36,793 nucleotides of DNA. Source: a virus. Its lineage: Duplodnaviria > Caudoviricetes. The notes below the pieces were generated by a model. It saw only the letters and a program-made list of their open reading frames with translations, did not search any database and was not told the DNA's origin. Shown here piece after piece: positions 17,277 to 35,119 of the stretch. The first letter of the stretch is position 1. Each line of letters begins with the position of its first letter. A program made the position numbers and the translations under genes. The stretch covers positions 1 to 36,793 of the IMG/VR virus record IMGVR_UViG_3300008255_000257. One strand, 5' to 3'.

Positions 17277-17323
17277 ATTATATAACTAAAAGGATAATTA
17301 ACAAAAATTAAAAGTGTGGATAA
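17277..17323 (-). promoter_or_regulatory. Promoter of the portal/head operon with adjacent DnaA box
   Basis: TTGTTA(17304-17299)-N16-TATAAT(17282-17277); perfect DnaA box at 17315-17323. Confidence 0.55.
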
Positions 17324-17340
17324 CTACTGAATAACTTTTT

Positions 17341-17372
17341 AAAAAACAAAAGGGCGTTTTAAGGTACGCCCC
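17341..17372 (-). terminator. Intrinsic terminator closing the GC-rich cassette
   Basis: GGGCGT-ACCTTAAA-ACGCCC followed by TTTTGTTTTTT on the minus strand. Confidence 0.75.
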
Positions 17373-17415
17373 GGACCCGCTGGAGGATTAGTCCAGCACA
17401 AGAATGATCACCTCC

Positions 17416-17715
17416 TTAGGAGGCCGTCGGAGGAATACCATGCGCCTCTACGATTTCATTGTCCACAATGGATCGGAGCTTCTGTTCGCACTGGGGACAG
17501 GTCCTACATTCCACCCCGACAACCACAGACGGAAAGTAGTCCTGAAATTCACTCACAAATCCAATGGACGGGTTCGTGAAATTCCAGTTGTTGAAGTGAA
17601 ACTCCGTCAGCGCGAACTGCTTGTCCCCGATACTCAACATCACACCACCTTCGTGCCACTGAAACCACTGGCAGACAGTGATGTACATTTCGGGTACTGG
17701 AATGATTGCGCTCAT
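17416..17715 (-). CDS. Hypothetical 99-aa protein of the GC-rich cassette (CxxCxxC motif)
   Basis: ATG 17715 preceded by AAGGAGGT at 7 nt; GC-rich third positions; MSAIIPVPEMY...VECRTCPQCEQK... Confidence 0.65.
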   Translation of the reverse strand: MSAIIPVPEMYITVCQWFQWHEGGVMLSIGDKQFALTEFHFNNWNFTNPSIGFVSEFQDYFPSVVVGVECRTCPQCEQKLRSIVDNEIVEAHGIPPTAS

Positions 17716-17798
17716 TCCCACCACCTCCTTTCGTCGGTGAAGCGGAAGTAGAGTACTACGACGCCAGCGACCACGAACACTGCTACGAGTCTCCTCAC
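17712..17798 (-). CDS. 28-aa single-TM peptide (MRRLVAVFVVAGVVVLYFRFTDERRWWE)
   Basis: GTG start after AAGGAGG; the TGA stop overlaps the ATG of the next gene (ATGA). Confidence 0.5.
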   Translation of the reverse strand: MRRLVAVFVVAGVVVLYFRFTDERRWWE

Positions 17799-17835
17799 GT
17801 CTCCTCCTTGACAAAGGACTGTTTATTTAAATATA

Positions 17836-17997
17836 TCATATCAAACCCCATAGATAAATCTTATAAAGTAAAAATAGGATAAACATTAGCCAGAAAATAA
17901 TTAGTGGGATAACAATAACAGCAAAGCTAGTGTCGTCTGGGAGTTCTATCATTTTGTTTAGTTCAAAGTATTCTATTATGTTTTTTAGGAGGTTCAT
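17836..17997 (-). CDS. Small membrane protein (53 aa)
   Basis: Hand translation MNLLKNIIEYFELNKMIELPDDTSFAVIVIPLIIFWLMFILFLLYKIYLWGLI. Confidence 0.5.
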   Translation of the reverse strand: MNLLKNIIEYFELNKMIELPDDTSFAVIVIPLIIFWLMFILFLLYKIYLWGLI

Positions 17998-18693: not shown

Positions 18694-21231
18694 TTAATAA
18701 GGATCAAAGTTATTATTAGCAATATCACTAGCACCCGAGCTACCGGAAGGCGCGTTGTTGCGCTCGCGGAGTTGGAAAGGGATATGTTTTGGTTCGTGAA
18801 GGATGAGTCGGTGGAGGTTCTCCGGCATGTGGTCATTCTTGTCTTTCGGCCGACCGGATTTTTGTTTATCGTCTGCGCTAGTGCCTTTATATTCGGCCCA
18901 GACATATTCTTCTAGTTGTTTAATTGTAACAGGGCAGGAGTCAAAAATAAAGATTTCTGGTTCTTTTACGAATTTTCCGGCTTTAATTTCATAATCAAAG
19001 GCATCTTCTAGGCGTTTTATACCGGCCATGAGGTCTTTACTACCTTTAATCCAACGCTCCCGAGAGATATCTACTATTTGGCTTCCTACACTTGGCTCTT
19101 TTGTATGCTGGTTATCATTAAAAGCTGAAGGATCAATGATTCTGTCTTCAATGCGAAAGTGCATTTTTGTTTCCAGTTCTATCATTCTTGAGTTGAGCAT
19201 TTTTACTAAGCCTTCAGATAGAAGTTCGGCGGTTACTATTTTAGTACCTTTACTATTGACAGAAAGATACAAAACATGGTCTTGAACTCTGGGGTGCGGA
19301 TCGAGCGCTTTGTATGTTGTCCAGTCTTTTTCGTTGATAGGAAAAGGTTTTATGACATGAATTTTTCTATTAAATCTTTTATGTACTCTACCGAGTAAAT
19401 GGCCAAATTTTCCAAATATGCGCGCTTCTTTTTCATCTTCCGGCATAGAATCAGACATTCTTTGAATTGCTTTATGATCTAGAATTCCTCTTACTCCGTG
19501 GATTTTACAGTTACCAGTAATAAGAGGATATTTTTCTGTTTTATCCCTCACAATAATTGTTTCATTATCAACAGAAACACAAGACACTATCCCATTATAA
19601 AAAACCTTCTTTATACCTCTATCCACATAGGAATATCTATGTTTAAGAGCTGAAACACAATACATATCAGCACAAAAATATTTTCTACCCATTATAAATC
19701 TTTCCCCTTGCTTCCACTTTCTTAGAGAGGCTCTATACCCTAATCTTATCAGTAATTCTTGAACATCATCAGCTAGTTGTTTAGAGGAAGTTAAATATCT
19801 TTTTTTAGAATCTCCATCGGTAATTAAAAGTGTCTCCCAAAGTAATTGAAGATATTCTTTTGGGTACTCAAAAACATACCTTGGTATATGTTTTTGCGCC
19901 GAATTTCCTAAGGAAAAAAGATTTTGGTGTAATTCTTTACTAGATAACCAATATTCATATTTTCTTTCTCGCCAAGCCCATTTAGTTTTATCCAATAACT
20001 CCTTTAATTTCTTTCTTTTTTCTATGTGTTTTTGAGTAATATAAATACCATAATGCTTTTGGGTGCTTCCCTTAGTGCCAGTAGCACAACCCTCAGAAAT
20101 ATACCAACCTAAGAATTCACACCAATCTTTTCCACTAATTTTGTCAGGAAAAGGGGAATCAAATCGAGTTGCCACATAACCATTTTCGGAAAAATTTAGC
20201 ATTCGGACTCCACGACGCAAAGTGTCAGCTCGCCTTATTTCTAAAGGCATATTTTTTATTGTTCTTTTTTCTCCTAAATCACTATTAAAAGTAACCATTC
20301 TATGATCGGGAGTGAAAAGAAGACCGTCTCCAGTAGAAATAAGTTCCCCAGAGAAATTTTTTTTAACTAATTCATTTACTTTTTGATATTCAATTAGTCT
20401 ATTTTTTAAATTATAGGTGGCTACTATATCCCCAATCTGAACCTTGTCTAAATCTCTCCAGCCTTGATATGTCAATATTTCTGCGTTATCGGCAAGACAA
20501 GCATCTTCTACTTCCGCTTCCACATATTCCGCTTCATCCGGGTGTTCGTCCATCCAGTCTTTTACCCAGCCGGCTTGAAATAGAGGCGTATAAGTCCAGA
20601 AACATATCATTCCCATACGACCTCGAGCAAGAGAGGCGAGAAATCTATCTTTAGGAAGAGGCTCATCAATCCAAAGAAATCCCAGATCAACGGATTCAAA
20701 GCTTTTCAGATCCTGTTCGTTACTCATTACGTCAATAGTCCAGCCGTTGTTGAAGATAAACTTTGAAGCATAATACTTTCCTTCTTTGGAAGTTTCATAT
20801 AGTTTCTCAGGGAAATTTTTATATGTGTTTCTTGGAAGCCATTTTATCAGCTCTGGTATTATTTTTTCTTTAATAGTTGTTGGATCAGAAATAACACGGC
20901 CACGCTTTATATATGGAAATTGTTGAAAAAGAGGATGTTTGAACCATTTATTCTGTGGACCAAAGATGATATTTGCCACAATATTAGATCCTACGGCCGT
21001 TTTACCTACCCCGTTAGCTCCAATAAACATGTTTACAAATTTAGAATCAGAGCCGACGAGTTTAATAAACTTCTCCACCTTGCCGTTTGGTGTATAATAC
21101 TGCGCGGCTTCCATAGCATCACGTTGTTCCAACTCCTCAGCCATTTCAGCTATTTCAGTCAGCTCTTCTTCCGGCAATTCTTCAAGCCGTTTTCGTATTG
21201 TATCTATTGAACTTAATATTTCTTCTTGCAT
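18694..21231 (-). CDS. terL: Terminase large subunit, intein-containing
   Basis: Walker A GANGVGKT, Walker B FLWIDE, coupling motif TYTP, and nuclease residues ALDPH...NDHMPENL. Confidence 0.9.
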   Translation of the reverse strand: MQEEILSSIDTIRKRLEELPEEELTEIAEMAEELEQRDAMEAAQYYTPNGKVEKFIKLVGSDSKFVNMFIGANGVGKTAVGSNIVANIIFGPQNKWFKHPLFQQFPYIKRGRVISDPTTIKEKIIPELIKWLPRNTYKNFPEKLYETSKEGKYYASKFIFNNGWTIDVMSNEQDLKSFESVDLGFLWIDEPLPKDRFLASLARGRMGMICFWTYTPLFQAGWVKDWMDEHPDEAEYVEAEVEDACLADNAEILTYQGWRDLDKVQIGDIVATYNLKNRLIEYQKVNELVKKNFSGELISTGDGLLFTPDHRMVTFNSDLGEKRTIKNMPLEIRRADTLRRGVRMLNFSENGYVATRFDSPFPDKISGKDWCEFLGWYISEGCATGTKGSTQKHYGIYITQKHIEKRKKLKELLDKTKWAWRERKYEYWLSSKELHQNLFSLGNSAQKHIPRYVFEYPKEYLQLLWETLLITDGDSKKRYLTSSKQLADDVQELLIRLGYRASLRKWKQGERFIMGRKYFCADMYCVSALKHRYSYVDRGIKKVFYNGIVSCVSVDNETIIVRDKTEKYPLITGNCKIHGVRGILDHKAIQRMSDSMPEDEKEARIFGKFGHLLGRVHKRFNRKIHVIKPFPINEKDWTTYKALDPHPRVQDHVLYLSVNSKGTKIVTAELLSEGLVKMLNSRMIELETKMHFRIEDRIIDPSAFNDNQHTKEPSVGSQIVDISRERWIKGSKDLMAGIKRLEDAFDYEIKAGKFVKEPEIFIFDSCPVTIKQLEEYVWAEYKGTSADDKQKSGRPKDKNDHMPENLHRLILHEPKHIPFQLRERNNAPSGSSGASDIANNNFDPY
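19510..20499 (-). mobile_element. 330-aa intein with LAGLIDADG homing endonuclease in TerL
   Basis: N-terminal CLADNAEILTYQGW, block B TPDHRM, LAGLIDADG motifs FLGWYISEG and LLITDGD, C-terminal ...LITGN followed by +1 Cys. Confidence 0.9.
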
Positions 21232-22582: not shown

Positions 22583-22819
22583 TTATAATTCCTTAAACGC
22601 ATCAGGACTTGAATCTTTTCCTCGATATTTACCAGTGTACTCCATTTCTCCATTTTCACTCCCTTCTTTGTGTTTTATGTACCCCTCTCGAATATAAAAA
22701 TTCACTTCTGCCCTACTTAAAACTAGAGGGTACCCGCCGAACATTATCCAGTTATTAGGTTGTACTTTATAATCCATAAATATTAATACCGGCAGCATGA
22801 TCAACTTCATGCTGTACAA
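22583..22819 (-). CDS. Hypothetical protein (start uncertain)
   Basis: ORF following def. Confidence 0.45.
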   Translation of the reverse strand: MYSMKLIMLPVLIFMDYKVQPNNWIMFGGYPLVLSRAEVNFYIREGYIKHKEGSENGEMEYTGKYRGKDSSPDAFKEL

Positions 22820-23228
22820 TAAACGCGTCGATCTCTTTGAAAGTCCTCCGGCGCGGGATCAGAAAGAGGTTGAAAAGGGGGGTTTGGTAGGTTACGGTGA
22901 TCTTGGCGAATCTATCTACTTCTTTCTCGGACCGGTACATGAAGCTCATACAGCCCTCAGAAAAGGTACAAGGTTGCTCTTTTTTGACTATCCTGGCGTT
23001 TATTACGCACCAGTGACCGAATGTTCGTATTTTCTTCTTATTCACCACAAAGAAGACTTTGGGGCTTTCTGAGACCTGTGTATGGGATATAGCGAAGGCG
23101 TCTTTCCAGTTGCCTTCAAATTCCTTAGCATCCAGGAAGGCTTTTAACTCTAGTGCCTCCTCTTTAATCTCAGACCATCTTTGTACCTTTTCTGATATTT
23201 TATTACTTAGGGGTTTTAGTATTTTCAT
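22767..23228 (-). CDS. def: Peptide deformylase (short viral type)
   Basis: EGCMS (motif 2), QHEVDH (motif 3), degenerate motif 1 AFAISHTQV, INARI. Confidence 0.85.
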   Translation of the reverse strand: MKILKPLSNKISEKVQRWSEIKEEALELKAFLDAKEFEGNWKDAFAISHTQVSESPKVFFVVNKKKIRTFGHWCVINARIVKKEQPCTFSEGCMSFMYRSEKEVDRFAKITVTYQTPLFNLFLIPRRRTFKEIDAFIVQHEVDHAAGINIYGL

Positions 23229-24764: not shown

Positions 24765-25823
24765 TTATTCTTCTTCTTTTTCCTCACTGATCTCCACTTC
24801 TTTATTTTCTTTATTTGGAAGCATGAGGTCTTTTTTTATTAAATCAACAATTTTTTCAGCGGTTTTAGGGTTTTCTTTCAGAAATATTCTTGCTTTATCA
24901 TAGCCAACTCCTAGCCTTATTTCTACTTTATCCTCAATAAAGAGATAGGAATGGCCAGATTTGGTGATGATTTTATATTTTTCTCCAAGGGCGAGAATCT
25001 CTCCTTGCTTTGAGATACCTTCACCATACATAATATCAAATTCTGTTTGGCGGAAAGGAGGAGCAACTTTATTTTTAGTTACTTTTACCCTTGTTCTATT
25101 TCCAACAGTTTCCTCTCCCTTTTTTATTTGTGCAAGTCTGCGCATATCCAGACGAACGGAACTATAGAATTTTAAGGCCTTGCCTCCAGTTGTAAACTCT
25201 GTGGGACCATACATCTGACCAATCATTTGGCGGATTTGGTTTAAGAAAATTACTACAGTTTTTGAATTACTGATTAAAGGTATAAGCTTACGCAGGCCAT
25301 GGGACATTAGTTTTGCGTGTCGGCCGACTTGAGGATCTCCCATATCTCCTTCTATTTCTGCTTTAGGGACCAAAGAAGCTACGGAATCAATTACCACTAC
25401 CGCGAACTTTCCAGTACGCACAAAGCTCTCTACTATCTCTAAGGCCTGCTCTCCGTTCTCTGGTTGGCTGATTAAGAGGTCTTTAGTGCTTACCCCTATC
25501 TTAGAGGCATATTCGGGGTCTAACGCGTGTTCTGTGTCAATATAGGCACAAAGACCACCTGATTTTTGAGCCTCTGCTACTGTATGCAGAGCTAGGGTTG
25601 TTTTACCAGACATTTCTGGGCCATATATTTCAACTACGCGTCCACGCGGAAATCCTCCTATTCCAAGCGCCATATCTAATCCAAATGAACCGGAGGGAAT
25701 AGAATCAATATCCATCGCTGTTTGGTTTAATTTCATTACACTATCTTCTCCAAACTTCTTTTTTATTTCCTTTATTGCATCATCTACACTTGCACCTATT
25801 TCTTTTTTTGATTTTTCTTTCAT
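24765..25823 (-). CDS. recA: Recombinase RecA
   Basis: [73 protein letters not shown]. Start is 25823 or 25859. Confidence 0.97.
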
Positions 25824-25842
25824 GTTCTTGCTTTTTAAATTT

Positions 25843-26298
25843 TTAATATTGAATTTCATTTTCTCTACCCTCAACTAGTTTTTTATTTAATTTCATAAAC
25901 TCAGTGATGGCATAATATGGGCTAACTTTTTCTCTTGACCTTTCTTCTAGGGCTTGGAATTCTTTTTCTCCAAGCCACATCAGCATATAGTCTTTATATA
26001 TTCCCTTTTTGTTTATTTCCCAGATTGCATGACATTCGGTACAGAGGGTTATACAGTTTTCCGGATCATATCTAGTAGCATATATTGTCCGACCAAAATA
26101 ATGAGAACAACCAAGGAATCTTGTTGAACCGCAAGCTACACATTGACTGTCCCTTTTTCTTATTTCTAAGGAAAATCTATGATCAGCTTCTTGAACCTGC
26201 CAGACATCTTTTATTTCTCCGGTAACTTCACGGAAATTTCTCATGCGTTTAAAAGCTTTTAGGGTAGAATTTTTAGTTTTAAATGGTGTTTTTTTCAT
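25843..26298 (-). CDS. NinG/Rap-like HNH recombination endonuclease
   Basis: [17 protein letters not shown]...CSHYFGR...[16 protein letters not shown]; likely start 26298. Confidence 0.8.
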
Positions 26299-29547: not shown

Positions 29548-29799
29548 TTATAAATTTAAAGGTTCCTTAATTTTCAAAGACGCGCGAATATCATTTATAT
29601 ACCCGACACAATGGAGAAGAGATCGTATGTTACTGGCGATAGCACCCTTGGCGCCGATTATCTTTCCCATATCTTCTTTTGCGACACTGACAGAAAACAA
29701 CACACCCTGCTCATCCATACTTGCTTCAATTTCTACTTCTTCTGGTTTGGAGACTAACCCGGAGATCACATTATGTAGCCAATTTTTTACTTTGTCCAT
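29548..29799 (-). CDS. khpA: KH-domain RNA-binding protein, KhpA-like
   Basis: LVSKPEEVEI...SVAKEDMGKIIGAKGAIASNIRSLL; single KH domain with an intact GxxG loop. Confidence 0.85.
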   Translation of the reverse strand: MDKVKNWLHNVISGLVSKPEEVEIEASMDEQGVLFSVSVAKEDMGKIIGAKGAIASNIRSLLHCVGYINDIRASLKIKEPLNL

Positions 29800-29833: not shown

Positions 29834-32800
29834 CTAATCTACTTCATTTTGTGCAAGTTTTTTAAGTTGTTTATACACATCATCAGTAATTATTTTCTTT
29901 TTTCTGAGCTCTTTTATGTAGGCGTTTTTTTCTTCCGGTGTTTTCATATCCTTTGTTTGCTCGAAGATATATTCTGCGCGTTCACCATTTTCTACGCCCA
30001 TGTTTCTGATTTCAATATCTTCTTCGGTGATGCCAAGTTCTTCATCTTCTTTTAGTTTTTTTATTCTTCTATATAAAGGCGGATCATTTTCTTTGTATTC
30101 TTTCATTATTGCGTTGGCTTCGTCTTTTGGAAGCGCTTTCAGCCTCTCAAATTCTTTTTCAGCTTCTGATACTTCTTCTCCGATAAATTGTCTTACCACG
30201 GATGGCTTCAATGTATTTCCGAGCTTTCCTACTCCGCGAATTTTGTCGTCTTGTGTCCGGTCTCCGGTTGCTAGTGAGATTCCTATTTGCTTCAAAGCCA
30301 CGGAAATATCGCCGACAAGAGACATCAGAGGCGGTTCCGATGTGTATAGAGTAGGATCAAGCGCCCCGATGATAGAGAGCGAATCACGCGCCGCTTTCCA
30401 AGCCACTTCTTCCATGAAGTTTCTGTCCTTTCTGCGCTTTTTTCTTTCCATAAATTCGTAGGTGGCGAAAACGATGGTGGCCGTTAGTAAAACAGCTCTT
30501 AATGTCTCCCTTCCCTCCCGAGAATTAAGTGGCACTTTGCGGGTTGTTAGTTTTCCGATGTCTGAGAGTGTTGTTGAGATGATAGGCAATGCCCAGCTCT
30601 TAAACTGCGTGTATCCTTTTCCTATCGCGGTCTGGCCATAAATTGCTTTTGTCCCCATGCCACCGGTAGGCAACTGCCGCGCCATACCTTTTTTAATAAG
30701 CGCGAGCCGGTCAAGGTCTATGGCTCCCGAGGTCCATTCTGCCTTACTCATTGAGCCAAGGAGAAAAATAGAGTTAGCGTTGCGCGAGGCGTTTGAGAAA
30801 AGTCCGTATAATCCGACTTCCACTTTATCCCCAAAGCGCGCGGCCGCATCAAGGAAGGGCTGTCTAGCCAGTTCTCCCACCAGCGCTTCGTATTTCTTCG
30901 CCACGGCGCGTCCTTTGGGAGTCGCAAAGCGTTTTACTCCCAGCGCATACATTTTCTCTCCCAACCCCTTATAAACAAGCACTTGCGCGCCGGCTTGCGA
31001 GGTAAGTCCGACAGGGATATTAAATCCGAGAAAGAGTAATCGGGTAAAAGCTGTGCCGGTTCTCACCACCCAATCTAATTTACCTCCGGGCTTCAAGAAA
31101 GCGCGATCGGTTACACGTCCTTTTTGCGTGTTCATAAATTCCTTATAGAAACTCTTTAGTTGAGCGTCAAATTCCAGTCCTCGCGCGGTTGTCGCTAGAG
31201 AGTTTACAGAGTCAATGATTGCTTGATATTTTGGAAAGATAACATCCATGGCGCGCTTGCGGTTGAGCACCTCTTTATAAATCATATATGCCCTTGCGAC
31301 ATTTTTTGAAGGCACGAGCTGTCCTGTGCGCTTCATAGAAAATTGAAACCATTTTTCAAGAGGCAAGACTTCGCCTGTGCGCTGGTTCAAGATACCCGCT
31401 ACCGCTTCATCTTGCTTATACCTATCGAGAAATTCCCTGAAAGCCGCGCGCGCGCCTCTACCTGATCTTCTCCAGAATCCCGGCTTCTCTCCGGAAACCA
31501 CCCCGGCGACATAAGTCCCTTCCTCTTTCCATGCTTCTAAGAATGAGCGACGAATATGTGTGATATAATTTTTTACATATCGTGTCAAGGTGCCCTTTCG
31601 CAGGAGGTCGTCTCGCTCCTTTGCTAAGTCTTTCCAAATCCATTGCGCCGCCTTCAACTCAGCTGGGGTCATATCCTTTGCATATAATAGCTTGTCTTCC
31701 GGTCCAGCGGATAGCCAACGATAAGCAAGATCGTCTGTCGGAACGAGCCGTTCTACAAGCCCTCGTTTGCGAGATTTTCGTGCCGCCTTAAAGAGTTCAT
31801 TGACCGTCTCCCGCGCTTCAAGCGTTGCCATACTGGACGCTAAATCCGCTTTGTATATGTCGTGGATCATTACTTCAAAGAGCGGATTTTGACGTACAAG
31901 AGCGTTGCCCCCCATGTAGTTCCACTTTTCGTCGTGTTGGATGCTTGTCAATTCAGAAAGTTTAACCGGTGGTTTTCCTTCCAAGGCCCGCAATTTATTA
32001 ATGTCTTCAAGCGAGCGAGCAACTGCTTCTCTTCGTGTAAAGATACCGGCGAGGCTAGTGTTTTTGAGAGTCTGGAGCGTTCTCGGACCAAGAAAGACGT
32101 CTCCCTTTTCAAATTGTCGCAGGAATTCATCAAACTCTCTCATCTGATCAATAGTCATTTTTTCAAAGGAGTTCGGCATTTTGAGGAGTTTGCGGGCGTT
32201 TTCCCACTTTTTTAATTCCAAGTCGTTGATAGTGGCTTGCAGGGCAATACGCGCTTGGCGGTGGAGTTCCCTTTTTTCCAGGTAACCAGCCATGTATCCC
32301 TTAAAGGTTTCAGTGTTGAGAGCGTAGATTTCATCGTCTGTTAATTCTTCCAGCGCTTTTCGGGCGTTGGTTCTTTGTTCAAGAGCAAGCGTTTCCAAGA
32401 GTTCGGCTTTTTTCATCAGGGCGAGTTCTGCGCGCTTGGCAGTTGCCATTTTTTCCAACGCCTTCCTTTCTCTGGCTGTAGTGAGATATTTTTCTATTTC
32501 TTCTCTTATGACATCCGGGTCGTCAAACTTCCCAGACAATTCTGGTCTGTCTTCAAAGGCGCTTTCAACCGCTCTGGTTACTTTTAAATTTCTTGCTTTT
32601 ATTGCTTCTCTTTGGCGTTCAGTGTATTTAAATTTACCCATACTATCCACAGCGTCAGGGTTCTTTAATTCTTCAAATTGCCCTTCTTTTTTAGATTGAA
32701 ATTTGATTAGTTTCTTACCGGGCATAGTGTCCTCTACTTCTCTGATAATTTCCAGTTGGACCTTGATGTCATCCAACTCTTTAGAAGCTTTTCCAATATC

Positions 32801-35119
32801 ACGAGGACCCAGCGCCTTTATTTTGCTTCCGAGTTCTTCAAGCTGTTTTGTCGTTATATCTTTAACTTCGTCTAACTCTTTCTGCACTCTCGGCCCAAAA
32901 TCCTCCCCAGCCCGAGCTCGAGCAGCCGCACTCTCCACCGCTCCAGCCGTGCCTTTTTTAGGAAACTTTGGTGGTGTGGTGGCGATGAATTCTTCGGCGG
33001 ATTTTGGTTTTACTGCTTCCACCCCATCCCACTCTGCTCTTAGTTGGGAGCGTGTTTTGATTACATCTGGATTAAATACTGCATAGTGTGTTGAAGGTCT
33101 ATTATATAAGCCAACAGCGTCATCTATGTTTTTTATTTTAAGCCCAGTTTTGTTTAGTTTTCTAGCTTTTTCAACTTGTTGACTTAACCAACTATCAATA
33201 TCTCCGTCTTGTCCTAATTCTTGTGGTGTTTTTCCTTTAGCATCAACTTCCAAGAAATCCCCTTTAATTGATACATCTTTAACTTTTGCATTTACTCTGC
33301 GGTCGTATGTTGCATCATACCCACCCAAATCGTCTATCTTTTGTGTCAACTCATCCACTTTCAACCAGTCGGAGTTTTTGCCACTTTTTTGTGCAATCTT
33401 TTCAAGTGCGGCGTGTTGTTTCATTAGTTTATTTATTGGACCAGTTTCGGCGGCATATATAGAATATGCTTTAGCAGTAGCAGGGTCATCAGTAAACCAA
33501 AACGCCCCCTTTGCACTTTGAGCATCTGTAATACTACCCTTAAAAGAATCACTAAACTTTTCAAAATCTGCGGCAGTTCCGTGATAAGCATTTATTTCCC
33601 CCTTCACCCACTCATCAAAAGATTGGCCAGAAGCTTTGGCTTTGGAGATGGAGGTAGAAAGCTCTGTTTTAGGCACAATCGCTGTTTCTGGGACAGTTTT
33701 TGGCGTTTCCCGCACACTAAAAGGCTCGCTCCCCCTAGTTTCCCCGTTAGCGGTGGCTTTTGATATTTCTTTTGGTTTAAAAAGCGGATTTTGTTTACCA
33801 TTGATAGTTTCTATTTCTTCTATCCTAACATTAATTTGATTTTTAGTACCAACTCTTTCTATTTTTATCATATCACCCATTTTCTGTTTCTCAAAAATAT
33901 ACTTATCCTCACTAAAGAATCTTTGACTTGCTTCTGAATTTTGTCTTCCTTTTATGCCATCTTCAAAAATATTATCTACAATAACAGTGAAAGGTAAAGT
34001 TTCTCCGTCTTTCGGCCTTACTTTGTATAAGTTAGGAGGGTCTATTACTTTATATTCCGCATTGGTTAAATTAGTTTTTACAACATCTCCCACTTTAGGC
34101 ATAATCGATGTCTCCGGCGAAGGTATTTCCACCGGCTTGATTGTGTTTGTTTTAGGATCATAGAAGCCGGAGGGTTGGGGAGCAGGCAGGGCAGTTTCTG
34201 ATTGTCTGGCTATGAAGGTCGCCGCTTCACCTCTTATGGCGGTTTCTACTCCCTCAGCTGTCGTGGCTTTTGCTACGTTATGAGCTGCGGCTTGAGCTAA
34301 TTCTTCCGGTAGGCCATACCTTATCATCGTAACCCTCGCTAGGTCGTCTGTGGTAGCTTCTATGAGTTCTTTTAGGGCTATTGAGGTCAGCTTACCTTTT
34401 CCACCTGGAAACCAGGCATCAGCCACGAATCCGGCTATTGCTAGCGTGATGCCGAGGTTGTTTTTTTCCCATGGAGTTGCTATTGGACTTTTTCTTACGA
34501 AGCCGTCTATGTCTTCCTTAATGTTCTGCCAAGATTTTGGTTTGTGTTTAAATAAAATATCCTCTATGCTTTTATATGTTTCAATATCTTTATAGACTAA
34601 AGTTTCTTGTTTAAAAGATTTTTCTGCATCTAATACTCGTTCTGTTTTTGGCTTTCCTATTCTTGAAGTATCTGTCAGGGCTTGTCTGATTGCTTCTTTA
34701 CTCGTATCTACTCCGAGAAGTTGCGCCGCTTGTTTATAGGGAGAATATTTAGAAGTGTAGGCGGCTTCTAGTATTGTTTTTCCGACAGAGGAAAATCCTC
34801 CTAAAATTAATCTAGGAAAGTCCACAGTCACGGCTTTAGCTATTTTAGCCGGTTGTTCTATAAGTTCTGTCACAGCTTGTTGTCCGGTAGTTTGTTTACT
34901 TCTTCTTTGGGCTTGGCTTTCAAAAAAAGCGCTTATTCCAGTTGCCACAGCTTCTGGTGTTTTTGTCAAGGTTGTAGAAACAAGACCTCCAGGTACGAAG
35001 GGTTCCGGTGGAGCGCTCATATCAAAAACGGGGATGGGCGGAGTTTCAATAAAGAATTTCTCCTTTACCTTGCTTCCCAGTTTCTTTATTTCATCCCTTA
35101 TGTCAAAAAGTTGTGGCAT
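29834..35119 (-). CDS. Large polyvalent internal virion/ejection protein with ADP-ribosyltransferase-like domain
   Basis: 1761 aa, largely helical; AYHGTAADFEKF...GAFWFTDDPATAKAY...YAVFNPDVIK resembles ART-PolyVal. Confidence 0.7.
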   Translation of the reverse strand: MPQLFDIRDEIKKLGSKVKEKFFIETPPIPVFDMSAPPEPFVPGGLVSTTLTKTPEAVATGISAFFESQAQRRSKQTTGQQAVTELIEQPAKIAKAVTVDFPRLILGGFSSVGKTILEAAYTSKYSPYKQAAQLLGVDTSKEAIRQALTDTSRIGKPKTERVLDAEKSFKQETLVYKDIETYKSIEDILFKHKPKSWQNIKEDIDGFVRKSPIATPWEKNNLGITLAIAGFVADAWFPGGKGKLTSIALKELIEATTDDLARVTMIRYGLPEELAQAAAHNVAKATTAEGVETAIRGEAATFIARQSETALPAPQPSGFYDPKTNTIKPVEIPSPETSIMPKVGDVVKTNLTNAEYKVIDPPNLYKVRPKDGETLPFTVIVDNIFEDGIKGRQNSEASQRFFSEDKYIFEKQKMGDMIKIERVGTKNQINVRIEEIETINGKQNPLFKPKEISKATANGETRGSEPFSVRETPKTVPETAIVPKTELSTSISKAKASGQSFDEWVKGEINAYHGTAADFEKFSDSFKGSITDAQSAKGAFWFTDDPATAKAYSIYAAETGPINKLMKQHAALEKIAQKSGKNSDWLKVDELTQKIDDLGGYDATYDRRVNAKVKDVSIKGDFLEVDAKGKTPQELGQDGDIDSWLSQQVEKARKLNKTGLKIKNIDDAVGLYNRPSTHYAVFNPDVIKTRSQLRAEWDGVEAVKPKSAEEFIATTPPKFPKKGTAGAVESAAARARAGEDFGPRVQKELDEVKDITTKQLEELGSKIKALGPRDIGKASKELDDIKVQLEIIREVEDTMPGKKLIKFQSKKEGQFEELKNPDAVDSMGKFKYTERQREAIKARNLKVTRAVESAFEDRPELSGKFDDPDVIREEIEKYLTTARERKALEKMATAKRAELALMKKAELLETLALEQRTNARKALEELTDDEIYALNTETFKGYMAGYLEKRELHRQARIALQATINDLELKKWENARKLLKMPNSFEKMTIDQMREFDEFLRQFEKGDVFLGPRTLQTLKNTSLAGIFTRREAVARSLEDINKLRALEGKPPVKLSELTSIQHDEKWNYMGGNALVRQNPLFEVMIHDIYKADLASSMATLEARETVNELFKAARKSRKRGLVERLVPTDDLAYRWLSAGPEDKLLYAKDMTPAELKAAQWIWKDLAKERDDLLRKGTLTRYVKNYITHIRRSFLEAWKEEGTYVAGVVSGEKPGFWRRSGRGARAAFREFLDRYKQDEAVAGILNQRTGEVLPLEKWFQFSMKRTGQLVPSKNVARAYMIYKEVLNRKRAMDVIFPKYQAIIDSVNSLATTARGLEFDAQLKSFYKEFMNTQKGRVTDRAFLKPGGKLDWVVRTGTAFTRLLFLGFNIPVGLTSQAGAQVLVYKGLGEKMYALGVKRFATPKGRAVAKKYEALVGELARQPFLDAAARFGDKVEVGLYGLFSNASRNANSIFLLGSMSKAEWTSGAIDLDRLALIKKGMARQLPTGGMGTKAIYGQTAIGKGYTQFKSWALPIISTTLSDIGKLTTRKVPLNSREGRETLRAVLLTATIVFATYEFMERKKRRKDRNFMEEVAWKAARDSLSIIGALDPTLYTSEPPLMSLVGDISVALKQIGISLATGDRTQDDKIRGVGKLGNTLKPSVVRQFIGEEVSEAEKEFERLKALPKDEANAIMKEYKENDPPLYRRIKKLKEDEELGITEEDIEIRNMGVENGERAEYIFEQTKDMKTPEEKNAYIKELRKKKIITDDVYKQLKKLAQNEVD

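What the first reader, a model, noticed from the sequence alone, without database searches (positions are those of the whole stretch)
17341..17830. GC-rich, strong-SD expression cassette inside an SD-less phage: genes apparently formatted for a different cell's ribosomes
Seen: a ~470-bp island, visibly more GC-rich than its flanks, between terL/MTase and the portal operon. On the minus strand it reads: boxA-like GTCCTTTGTCAA (17819-17808), AAGGAGG, 28-aa TM peptide, AAGGAGGT, 99-aa CxxCxxC protein, TAAGGAGGTGATC, hairpin, intrinsic terminator. That is three strong SD sites, whereas the core genes I checked (MCP, portal, terL, recA, khpA) have only A/T-rich starts. Established: rrn boxA (UGCUCUUUAACA-like) recruits NusB/NusE, and many CPR bacteria use SD poorly. 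Inference: either a recent moron from an SD-using bacterium, or an effector transcript meant for translation in the CPR host's partner cell (host-of-host targeting).
Basis: partly seen in the sequence, partly recalled or inferred. Interest (0 to 1): 0.82.

Follow-up and report, generated by a model that had tools for sequence, protein, structure and literature searches.

The report
SD-led moron in SD-free Patescibacteria-type phage
A phage whose other genes lack ribosome-binding sites carries a small add-on unit of two genes with strong ribosome-binding sites and a start-less ribosome-docking sequence, so this unit likely needs ribosomes that still read such sites, most likely those of a tiny parasitic (Patescibacteria) host and possibly those of that host's partner cell.

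Summary
Observation confirmed. 17350-17819 is 53% GC between 27% and 31% flanks; its two ORFs have the only strong SD sites among 43 genes. It is a moron: absent from 37 distinct terL-portal gaps of kin, junctions bridged in another sample, ORF2 mostly synonymous changes (6 of 7), member of a ~10-cluster Cys/His family without known fold. Corrections: boxA overlaps and can pair with SD1; the third 'SD' leads no real gene and resembles a start-less 16S-tail complement common in phages. Two kin phages carry unrelated SD-led cassettes; L379 repeats the 3' anatomy. The boxA+SD leader recurs in Patescibacteria chromosomes. Phage RecA groups (long branch) with an order whose 10 visible 16S tails lack anti-SD, but 31 of 34 random Patescibacteria keep it, and the host is not pinned. 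Best reading (0.45): read by a Patescibacteria host that keeps its anti-SD. Relic import 0.25; partner-cell translation 0.2, untested, not refuted. The scan found both ingredients before on other DNA (CPR chromosomes; other phages); their union in one SD-less phage family is what this adds.

The parts
17830..17838 (-). Predicted extended -10 promoter (TG-n-TATATT), overlapping the stop of the upstream 53-aa ORF
   Evidence: Sequence; 10 nt before boxA, as in Patescibacteria loci L148 (10 nt) and L184 (9 nt). Not picked up by the -35/-10 scan. Inferred.
17808..17819 (-). boxA-like element GTCCTTTGTCAA, predicted to pair with SD1
   Evidence: One mismatch to the leader of G171:C4:11807; resembles the rrn-leader boxA of G034; hairpin with SD1 in folds of 70-483 nt
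17803..17809 (-). SD1 (AAGGAGG)
   Evidence: dG -11.4; unchanged in X2/X3 contigs
17712..17798 (-). ORF1, 28-aa peptide with a 15-residue hydrophobic stretch, GTG start, stop overlapping ORF2 start
   Evidence: mean hydropathy 2.97; no Pfam or PHROG hit; N-terminal over-call of homolog P0003 is compatible with a similar upstream hydrophobic frame (weak)
17723..17730 (-). SD2 (AAGGAGGT), inside ORF1, predicted paired in a hairpin
   Evidence: dG -12.9; mean unpaired 0.22-0.30
17416..17715 (-). ORF2, 99-aa protein, invariant C15, W17, H21, C73, C76: predicted zinc-binding, no known fold
   Evidence: Family of 10 clusters; 6 of 7 strain SNPs synonymous; AF2 pLDDT 86.6; no match in PDB/BFVD/VIA
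17401..17418 (-). Start-less 13-nt complement of the 16S 3' tail, starting with the ORF2 stop, followed by ATTCT; caged by its own CCTCC in a short hairpin
   Evidence: duplex -21.6 with canonical tail, -5 to -9 with anti-SD-less tails; variant of AAGGAGGTGATC-N0-8-ATCT elements in other phages
17379..17397 (-). 6-bp hairpin after the start-less site
17341..17372 (-). Intrinsic terminator (7-bp stem, U tract)
17277..17323 (-). Downstream TTATCCACA (DnaA-box label recalled) and promoter of the portal operon; marks the insertion point
   Evidence: the same motif follows terL directly in L002 and follows the cassettes of L370 and L379
17836..18674 (-). Neighbouring insert: DNA methyltransferase (18674-18018) and 53-aa membrane ORF (17997-17836), AT-rich and SD-less; not part of the SD-led unit
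   Evidence: absent from kin gaps shown

Best explanation
This is a self-contained two-gene moron inserted between terL and the portal operon of a phage whose other genes lack SD sites, and it is likely transcribed and translated in a Patescibacteria host whose 16S still carries the anti-SD tail. Shown: GC step, two SD-led ORFs coupled by an ATGA overlap, start-less 13-nt 16S-tail complement, terminator, absence from kin, purifying pattern in ORF2. Inferred: host sigma-70 RNA polymerase starts at the extended -10; NusB/S10 binds the boxA that overlaps SD1 and gates ORF1 (by analogy with E. coli suhB); ribosomes on ORF1 open the SD2 hairpin and reinitiate on ORF2; the terminal site parks a 30S subunit without making protein (STAB-SD/rreB-like), protecting or holding the 3' end; the terminator insulates the portal promoter. 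The cargo, a membrane peptide plus a predicted zinc-binding protein, most likely acts on the host cell (counter-defence or exclusion); that function is a guess.
For: Only 2 of 43 genes SD-led; not in 37 distinct kin gaps (46 rows), no A2 or DNA hit in kin loci. RecA: top 4 of 591 scored hits Patescibacteria; sister to two Patescibacteria genomes, SH-aLRT 98-99. Leader grammar shared with Patescibacteria accessory genes: GYYCTTT before SD-led standalone genes 3/18 vs 3/154 (G305), 11/42 vs 6/201 (G034), 7/26 vs 10/171 (G171), against 1/58 vs 4/142 in Paenibacillus; first base G in 21 of 25, which SD pairing does not explain. NusB over cut-off in 93 of 101 Patescibacteria. Anti-SD intact in 31 of 34 random tails and 29 of 30 genomes with a boxA+SD hit. 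A start-less 16S-tail site is useful only where an anti-SD exists, and it recurs in kin L379 behind an unrelated SD-led 101-aa LIM-like zinc protein, then hairpin, terminator and TTATCCACA. suhB precedent: PMC5725501 (passages).
Against: The RecA sister group lacks the anti-SD: G004 and 10 of 10 tails seen in that order, and boxA+SD genes persist in such genomes (G171, G421, G435, G452), where this mechanism cannot work as stated. RecA is on a long branch and is one marker; KhpA did not discriminate; no prophage in 301 genomes. boxA enrichment is absent in G052 (0/22 vs 3/179) and G004 (0/2 vs 0/123), and G305, G034 and G171 were picked because they had a hit. Rho is over cut-off in only 19 of 101 genomes, so classical antitermination is not the reason for boxA. 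L379 has no boxA. No expression data.
Confidence: 0.45

Rival explanations
1. Relic import: the unit came fairly recently from an SD-using phage or bacterium (or a GC-richer Patescibacteria chromosome); the host ribosome ignores the SD sites and ORF2 is translated SD-independently, so the signals are leftovers.
For: The start-less element is common in phages of SD-using hosts (37 start-less intergenic sites among 105 distinct sites; L379's copy nearly matches L634). boxA+SD leaders occur in SD-using phages. G004, near the phage RecA, is 52% GC with GC3 0.61, so the GC step may just be donor composition. G171's near-identical leader fronts an evidently acquired threonine operon.
Against: No donor found. 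Synonymous strain changes run in both directions, no drift to AT (6 sites only). Three different cargoes in one SD-less phage family all keep strong SD (window, L370, L379).
Confidence: 0.25
2. Host-of-host: the phage infects an anti-SD-less Patescibacteria cell, boxA keeps the message untranslated there, and the RNA (or the phage DNA) reaches the partner cell, whose ribosomes read it.
For: RecA sister order lacks anti-SD in all 10 tails seen; those tails pair with the three sites at only -1.5 to -8.8 vs -11.7 to -21.6 for the canonical tail. boxA next to an SD represses translation in the transcribing cell (PMC5725501). Phages co-targeted by CPR and partner spacers are reported (PMC10746230, passages); partner cells lose ribosomal signal under Paceibacteria (PMC10936435, passages). 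L370's cargo is a secreted trypsin-like protease.
Against: No transfer route known or shown; the grammar is just as common in genomes that keep anti-SD, so it needs no foreign reader there; host not pinned; benefit to the phage is indirect.
Confidence: 0.2
3. RNA-level device: the purine tracts are mainly structural or a 30S sponge, and the proteins are secondary.
For: All three sites are predicted paired (mean unpaired about 0.3); the transcript folds better than shuffles (z -2.6); rreB-type extended SDs bind 30S and impede translation (PMC5711450, abstract).
Against: ORF2 belongs to a conserved protein family with invariant Cys/His and shows mostly synonymous change; no Rfam hit.
Confidence: 0.1

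Closest known systems
Phage morons (promoter-ORF-terminator units between conserved late genes; definition recalled)
   Same: Own predicted promoter and terminator, different composition, absent from kin at the same gap
   Different: Uses translation signals that no other gene of the phage uses; adds a boxA leader and a start-less 16S-tail site
E. coli suhB boxA / Nus-factor translational repression (PMC5725501, passages read)
   Same: boxA within a few bases of an SD in an mRNA leader
   Different: boxA variant overlaps the SD; cargo is orphan; most Patescibacteria sampled lack Rho; binding untested
STAB-SD of cry3A (PMC4113751, passages) and rreB/rreR extended SD (PMC5711450, abstract)
   Same: Long 16S-tail complement that does not serve ordinary initiation
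   Different: Here at the 3' end, touching the upstream stop, before a hairpin and terminator; no conserved sORF shown
Anti-SD-less Parcubacteria subgroup (PMC9297842, passages)
   Same: Probable host neighbourhood by RecA; tails without CCTCCT seen directly
   Different: The passages read do not mention SD-led accessory genes or phages
Type I toxin-antitoxin loci (recalled)
   Same: Short hydrophobic peptide with a sequestered SD
   Different: No antisense RNA signal above chance; peptide is coupled to a downstream protein; no family hit

Membership tests
Phage moron | Inserted between genes that are adjacent in relatives | tested here: met
   Absent from 37 distinct terL-portal gaps
Phage moron | Own promoter and terminator | tested here: met
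   Terminator; extended -10 by sequence only; activity untested
Phage moron | Composition unlike the phage | tested here: met
Phage moron | Expressed and gives a benefit in the host | not testable with these tools
   Only indirect: 6 of 7 synonymous SNPs
boxA / Nus-regulated mRNA leader | boxA consensus near the start | tested here: inconclusive
   Fails the strict gamma-proteobacterial consensus of PMC5725501 but fits the Patescibacteria variant
boxA / Nus-regulated mRNA leader | NusB in the host lineage | tested here: met
   93 of 101 genomes
boxA / Nus-regulated mRNA leader | NusB/S10 binding changes output | not testable with these tools
   none
Patescibacteria boxA+SD accessory cassette (class seen in this scan, not a published family) | -10, boxA, strong SD, orphan ORF, terminator, higher GC3 | tested here: met
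Patescibacteria boxA+SD accessory cassette (class seen in this scan, not a published family) | Cargo homolog on a Patescibacteria chromosome | tested here: inconclusive
   Not found in 401 genomes sampled; 3 weak hits, one inspected and spurious, two inside 950-990-aa frames
Start-less 16S-tail element of phages | 12-13-nt complement, no start, touching a stop, hairpin and terminator behind | tested here: met
Start-less 16S-tail element of phages | ATCT within 8 nt | tested here: inconclusive
   Window has ATTCT; most of 44 elements have ATCT, partly by selection of the pattern
rreB/rreR small mRNA | Conserved sORF behind a 16-17-nt extended SD | tested here: not met
   13 nt only; L379 has no start behind its site
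Type I toxin-antitoxin | Antisense antitoxin RNA | tested here: inconclusive
   Two plus-strand promoter-like sites, 3 found vs 3.7 expected; no RNA data

The most novel reading that the evidence does not exclude
A phage of anti-SD-less Patescibacteria carries effector cassettes addressed to the ribosomes of its host's host: silenced in the infected cell by Nus factors on boxA, read in the partner cell through strong SD sites, and ending in a 30S-docking element, with exchangeable cargo (zinc proteins, a secreted protease) across the phage family.
Probability: 0.2. Interest if true: 0.9.

Novelty: new variant of a known kind. Interest (0 to 1): 0.52.

Why it matters
Patescibacteria and their phages start almost all genes without SD, and one order has lost the anti-SD, yet a separate class of accessory genes keeps textbook SD sites. 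Finding that class inside a phage family, three times with unrelated cargo, gives a compact 480-nt unit on which the open question (which ribosome reads these sites) can be tested.

Tried and rejected
Rfam on the island: one chance hit outside it; none in 16 loci with the start-less site; no tRNA/tmRNA. DNA search in 50,697 phage records: nothing. L011 is the end of a trehalose-synthase-like gene and L120 a CxxC ribbon protein: spurious. ESM Atlas: best 0.88, lead only; nothing for P0006. Fold searches: best E 0.86, E 0.21, Z 3.9; absence does not show a new fold. No RNA holder listed. boxA+SD scan of viral contigs gave 23 loci, none a GC island in an SD-less phage. The reversed-pattern control (84 matches in 71 genomes vs 56 in 52, counted by hand) is weak because GGAGG is its own reverse. 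The 'loose' boxA was tuned after seeing G034 and was dropped for the fixed core. One search listed 0 SD genes for the phage because an opposite-strand ORF displaced ORF2: script artefact; one search is the valid count. One search's pattern ended in W and misses typical intact tails (G at that place); the complement was run on only 5 of 51 genomes. Testing whether boxA+SD tracks anti-SD retention was uninformative (29/30 vs 31/34). Upstream genes of start-less sites are not generally Cys-rich (1 of 25 with CxxC). KhpA, PDF and integrase did not place the host. Six rows were lost from the RecA tree by my ORF filter (including anti-SD-less G036); both trees are quick trees. No complex prediction was run.

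Full report
Observation. The window is a 36.8-kb virus record with terL, portal, capsid, recA, khpA, deformylase and integrase genes. The island 17350-17819 is 53% GC against 27% and 31% flanks. Its two ORFs have the strongest SD duplexes (-11.4, -12.9) and the highest GC3 (0.69, 0.64) of 43 ORFs; 39 of the other 41 are weaker than -5.5 and none exceeds GC3 0.48. On the minus strand it reads: extended -10 (17838-17830), boxA-like 12-mer overlapping SD1, 28-aa hydrophobic ORF1, SD2, 99-aa ORF2 (ATGA overlap), a 13-nt exact complement of the 16S tail starting at the ORF2 stop, a hairpin and a terminator. Contigs of an independent groundwater run bridge both junctions.

It is a moron. In kin found by portal, terL and capsid searches, 46 loci (37 distinct) span the terL-portal gap and none has the unit; a profile of the ORF2 family and the island DNA hit none of the kin loci. 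The family is nearly SD-free. ORF2 is a real gene: 10 clusters at 29-98% identity with invariant C15, W17, H21, C73, C76, 6 of 7 strain differences synonymous (shallow contigs), a confident model (pLDDT 86.6) and no fold or family match. Zinc binding is inferred from the invariant residues, not measured. The homologs are unnamed metagenome proteins whose DNA I could not fetch. No donor was found in GTDB, IMG/VR, JGI or phage records or in 401 Patescibacteria genomes.

Host. The four best of 591 scored RecA hits (1/16 of the collection scanned) are Patescibacteria. In two quick trees the phage RecA is sister to G001 and G004 (SH-aLRT 98 and 99), on a long branch that the tool flagged in the first tree. 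G004's 16S tail lacks the anti-SD, as do all 10 tails seen among 51 genomes of G001's order (6, whose pattern was biased against intact tails; 4 of 5 in the complementary). In a random phylum sample 31 of 34 tails keep it. PMC9297842 (passages) reports anti-SD loss in a Parcubacteria subgroup. No prophage was found in 301 genomes and KhpA gave 47-50% at best. So: probably Patescibacteria, possibly the anti-SD-less order, not pinned.

The 5' end is Patescibacteria accessory-gene grammar. A boxA+SD pattern matched 84 places in 71 of 401 genomes. Of 50 loci fetched (30 automatic, 20 hand-picked), 29 of 43 C-type boxA hits lead an ORF of 50 aa or more, against 10 of 47 GGAGGT sites without boxA; many end in a terminator. 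With a fixed core, boxA is enriched before SD-led standalone genes in 400-kb samples of G305, G034 and G171 (each chosen for having a hit) but not in G052, G004 or Paenibacillus. Its first base is G in 21 of 25 cases. G171, which lacks the anti-SD, has a leader one base from the phage's, in front of a threonine operon; 9 of 15 hits in the RecA sister order lead ORFs. NusB is near universal (93 of 101) and Rho rare (19 of 101). In E. coli a boxA 6 nt from the SD represses translation of suhB (PMC5725501, passages). In the phage leader boxA is also predicted to pair with SD1. SD is not foreign to all Patescibacteria: G034 keeps the anti-SD and has SD-like sites on HU and RecA (names from my reading of the sequences).

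The 3' end is not a third start. Among 105 other distinct AAGGAGGTGATC sites from a viral scan that required ATYT, 37 are intergenic and start-less; 20 of these touch an upstream ORF stop and 12 have a terminator within 130 nt (window row removed; about 1500 stretches estimated). The window's site fits this layout with ATTCT for ATCT. Related principles are STAB-SD (PMC4113751, passages) and rreB (PMC5711450, abstract).

Recurrence in kin. L379 (capsid 77% identical) holds TTATCCAC, an SD-led 101-aa LIM-like zinc protein unrelated to ORF2, a stop touching AAGGAGGTGATCC, ATCT, hairpin, terminator and TTATCCACA; its element nearly matches L634 from another phage. L370 (capsid 76%) holds a GC3 0.65, SD-led, signal-peptide trypsin-like protease with a terminator. 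These are 2 of 90 kin loci, both upstream of terL rather than in the same gap.

Mechanism. Shown: anatomy, insertion, selection pattern, recurrence. Inferred: promoter use, Nus binding, coupling, 30S docking, cargo function. A start-less 16S-tail site makes sense only where an intact anti-SD meets the transcript, and anti-SD-less tails pair with the three sites at -1.5 to -8.8 against -11.7 to -21.6. The simplest reader is a Patescibacteria host that keeps the tail (0.45). If the host is in the anti-SD-less order, the signals are either relics of import (0.25), structural (0.1) or addressed to a partner cell (0.2); for the last, PMC10746230 (abstract and passages) and PMC10936435 (passages) give only context.

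Novelty. Searches listed no paper on SD-led or boxA-led accessory cassettes in Patescibacteria or their phages (listings and abstract starts read; passages of bioRxiv 10.64898/2026.10.21.760802 were irrelevant; no supplements opened). This scan's own notes already describe the chromosomal class and the start-less element; they are AI notes and I count only what I re-tested. Verdict: new variant of a moron, interest 0.52.

Noticed in passing
L379:300-770 (+): Kin SD-less phage with an SD-led 101-aa LIM-like zinc protein, start-less 16S-tail site with ATCT, hairpin and terminator, flanked by TTATCCAC motifs
   Followed up: yes
L370:430-1640 (+): Kin phage with canonical boxA, a 64-aa ORF and a GC-rich SD-led secreted trypsin-like protease with terminator, upstream of terS; tRNA-like fragment behind it, not called by ARAGORN
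   Followed up: partly
L418:8470-8560 (+): Start-less AAGGAGGTGAT caged by its own CCCTCC, upstream of the probable scaffold gene in a distant kin phage
   Followed up: no
L278:7396-11819 (-) (G171:C4): Threonine-biosynthesis-like operon (aspartokinase-homoserine dehydrogenase, kinase, threonine synthase; names from my reading) behind a boxA+SD leader in an anti-SD-less Patescibacteria genome
   Followed up: partly
101 Patescibacteria genomes: NusB kept in 93, Rho over cut-off in only 19
   Followed up: no
window 18694-21231 (-): terL contains a LAGLIDADG intein-like insert absent from the closest kin
   Followed up: no
window 29834-35119 (-): 1761-aa polyvalent protein with an ART-PolyVal domain
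   Followed up: no
window 22767-23228, 24765-25874, 29548-29799 (-): Phage-borne peptide deformylase, RecA and KhpA
   Followed up: partly
window 17315-17323 (-); L002, L339, L340 and other kin gaps: TTATCCAC(A) motif just before the portal-operon promoter in many kin
   Followed up: partly
L001:900-1370 (+): A different, AT-rich membrane-protein insert occupies the terL-portal gap in the closest portal relative: the gap is an insertion hotspot (271-3176 bp range)
   Followed up: no
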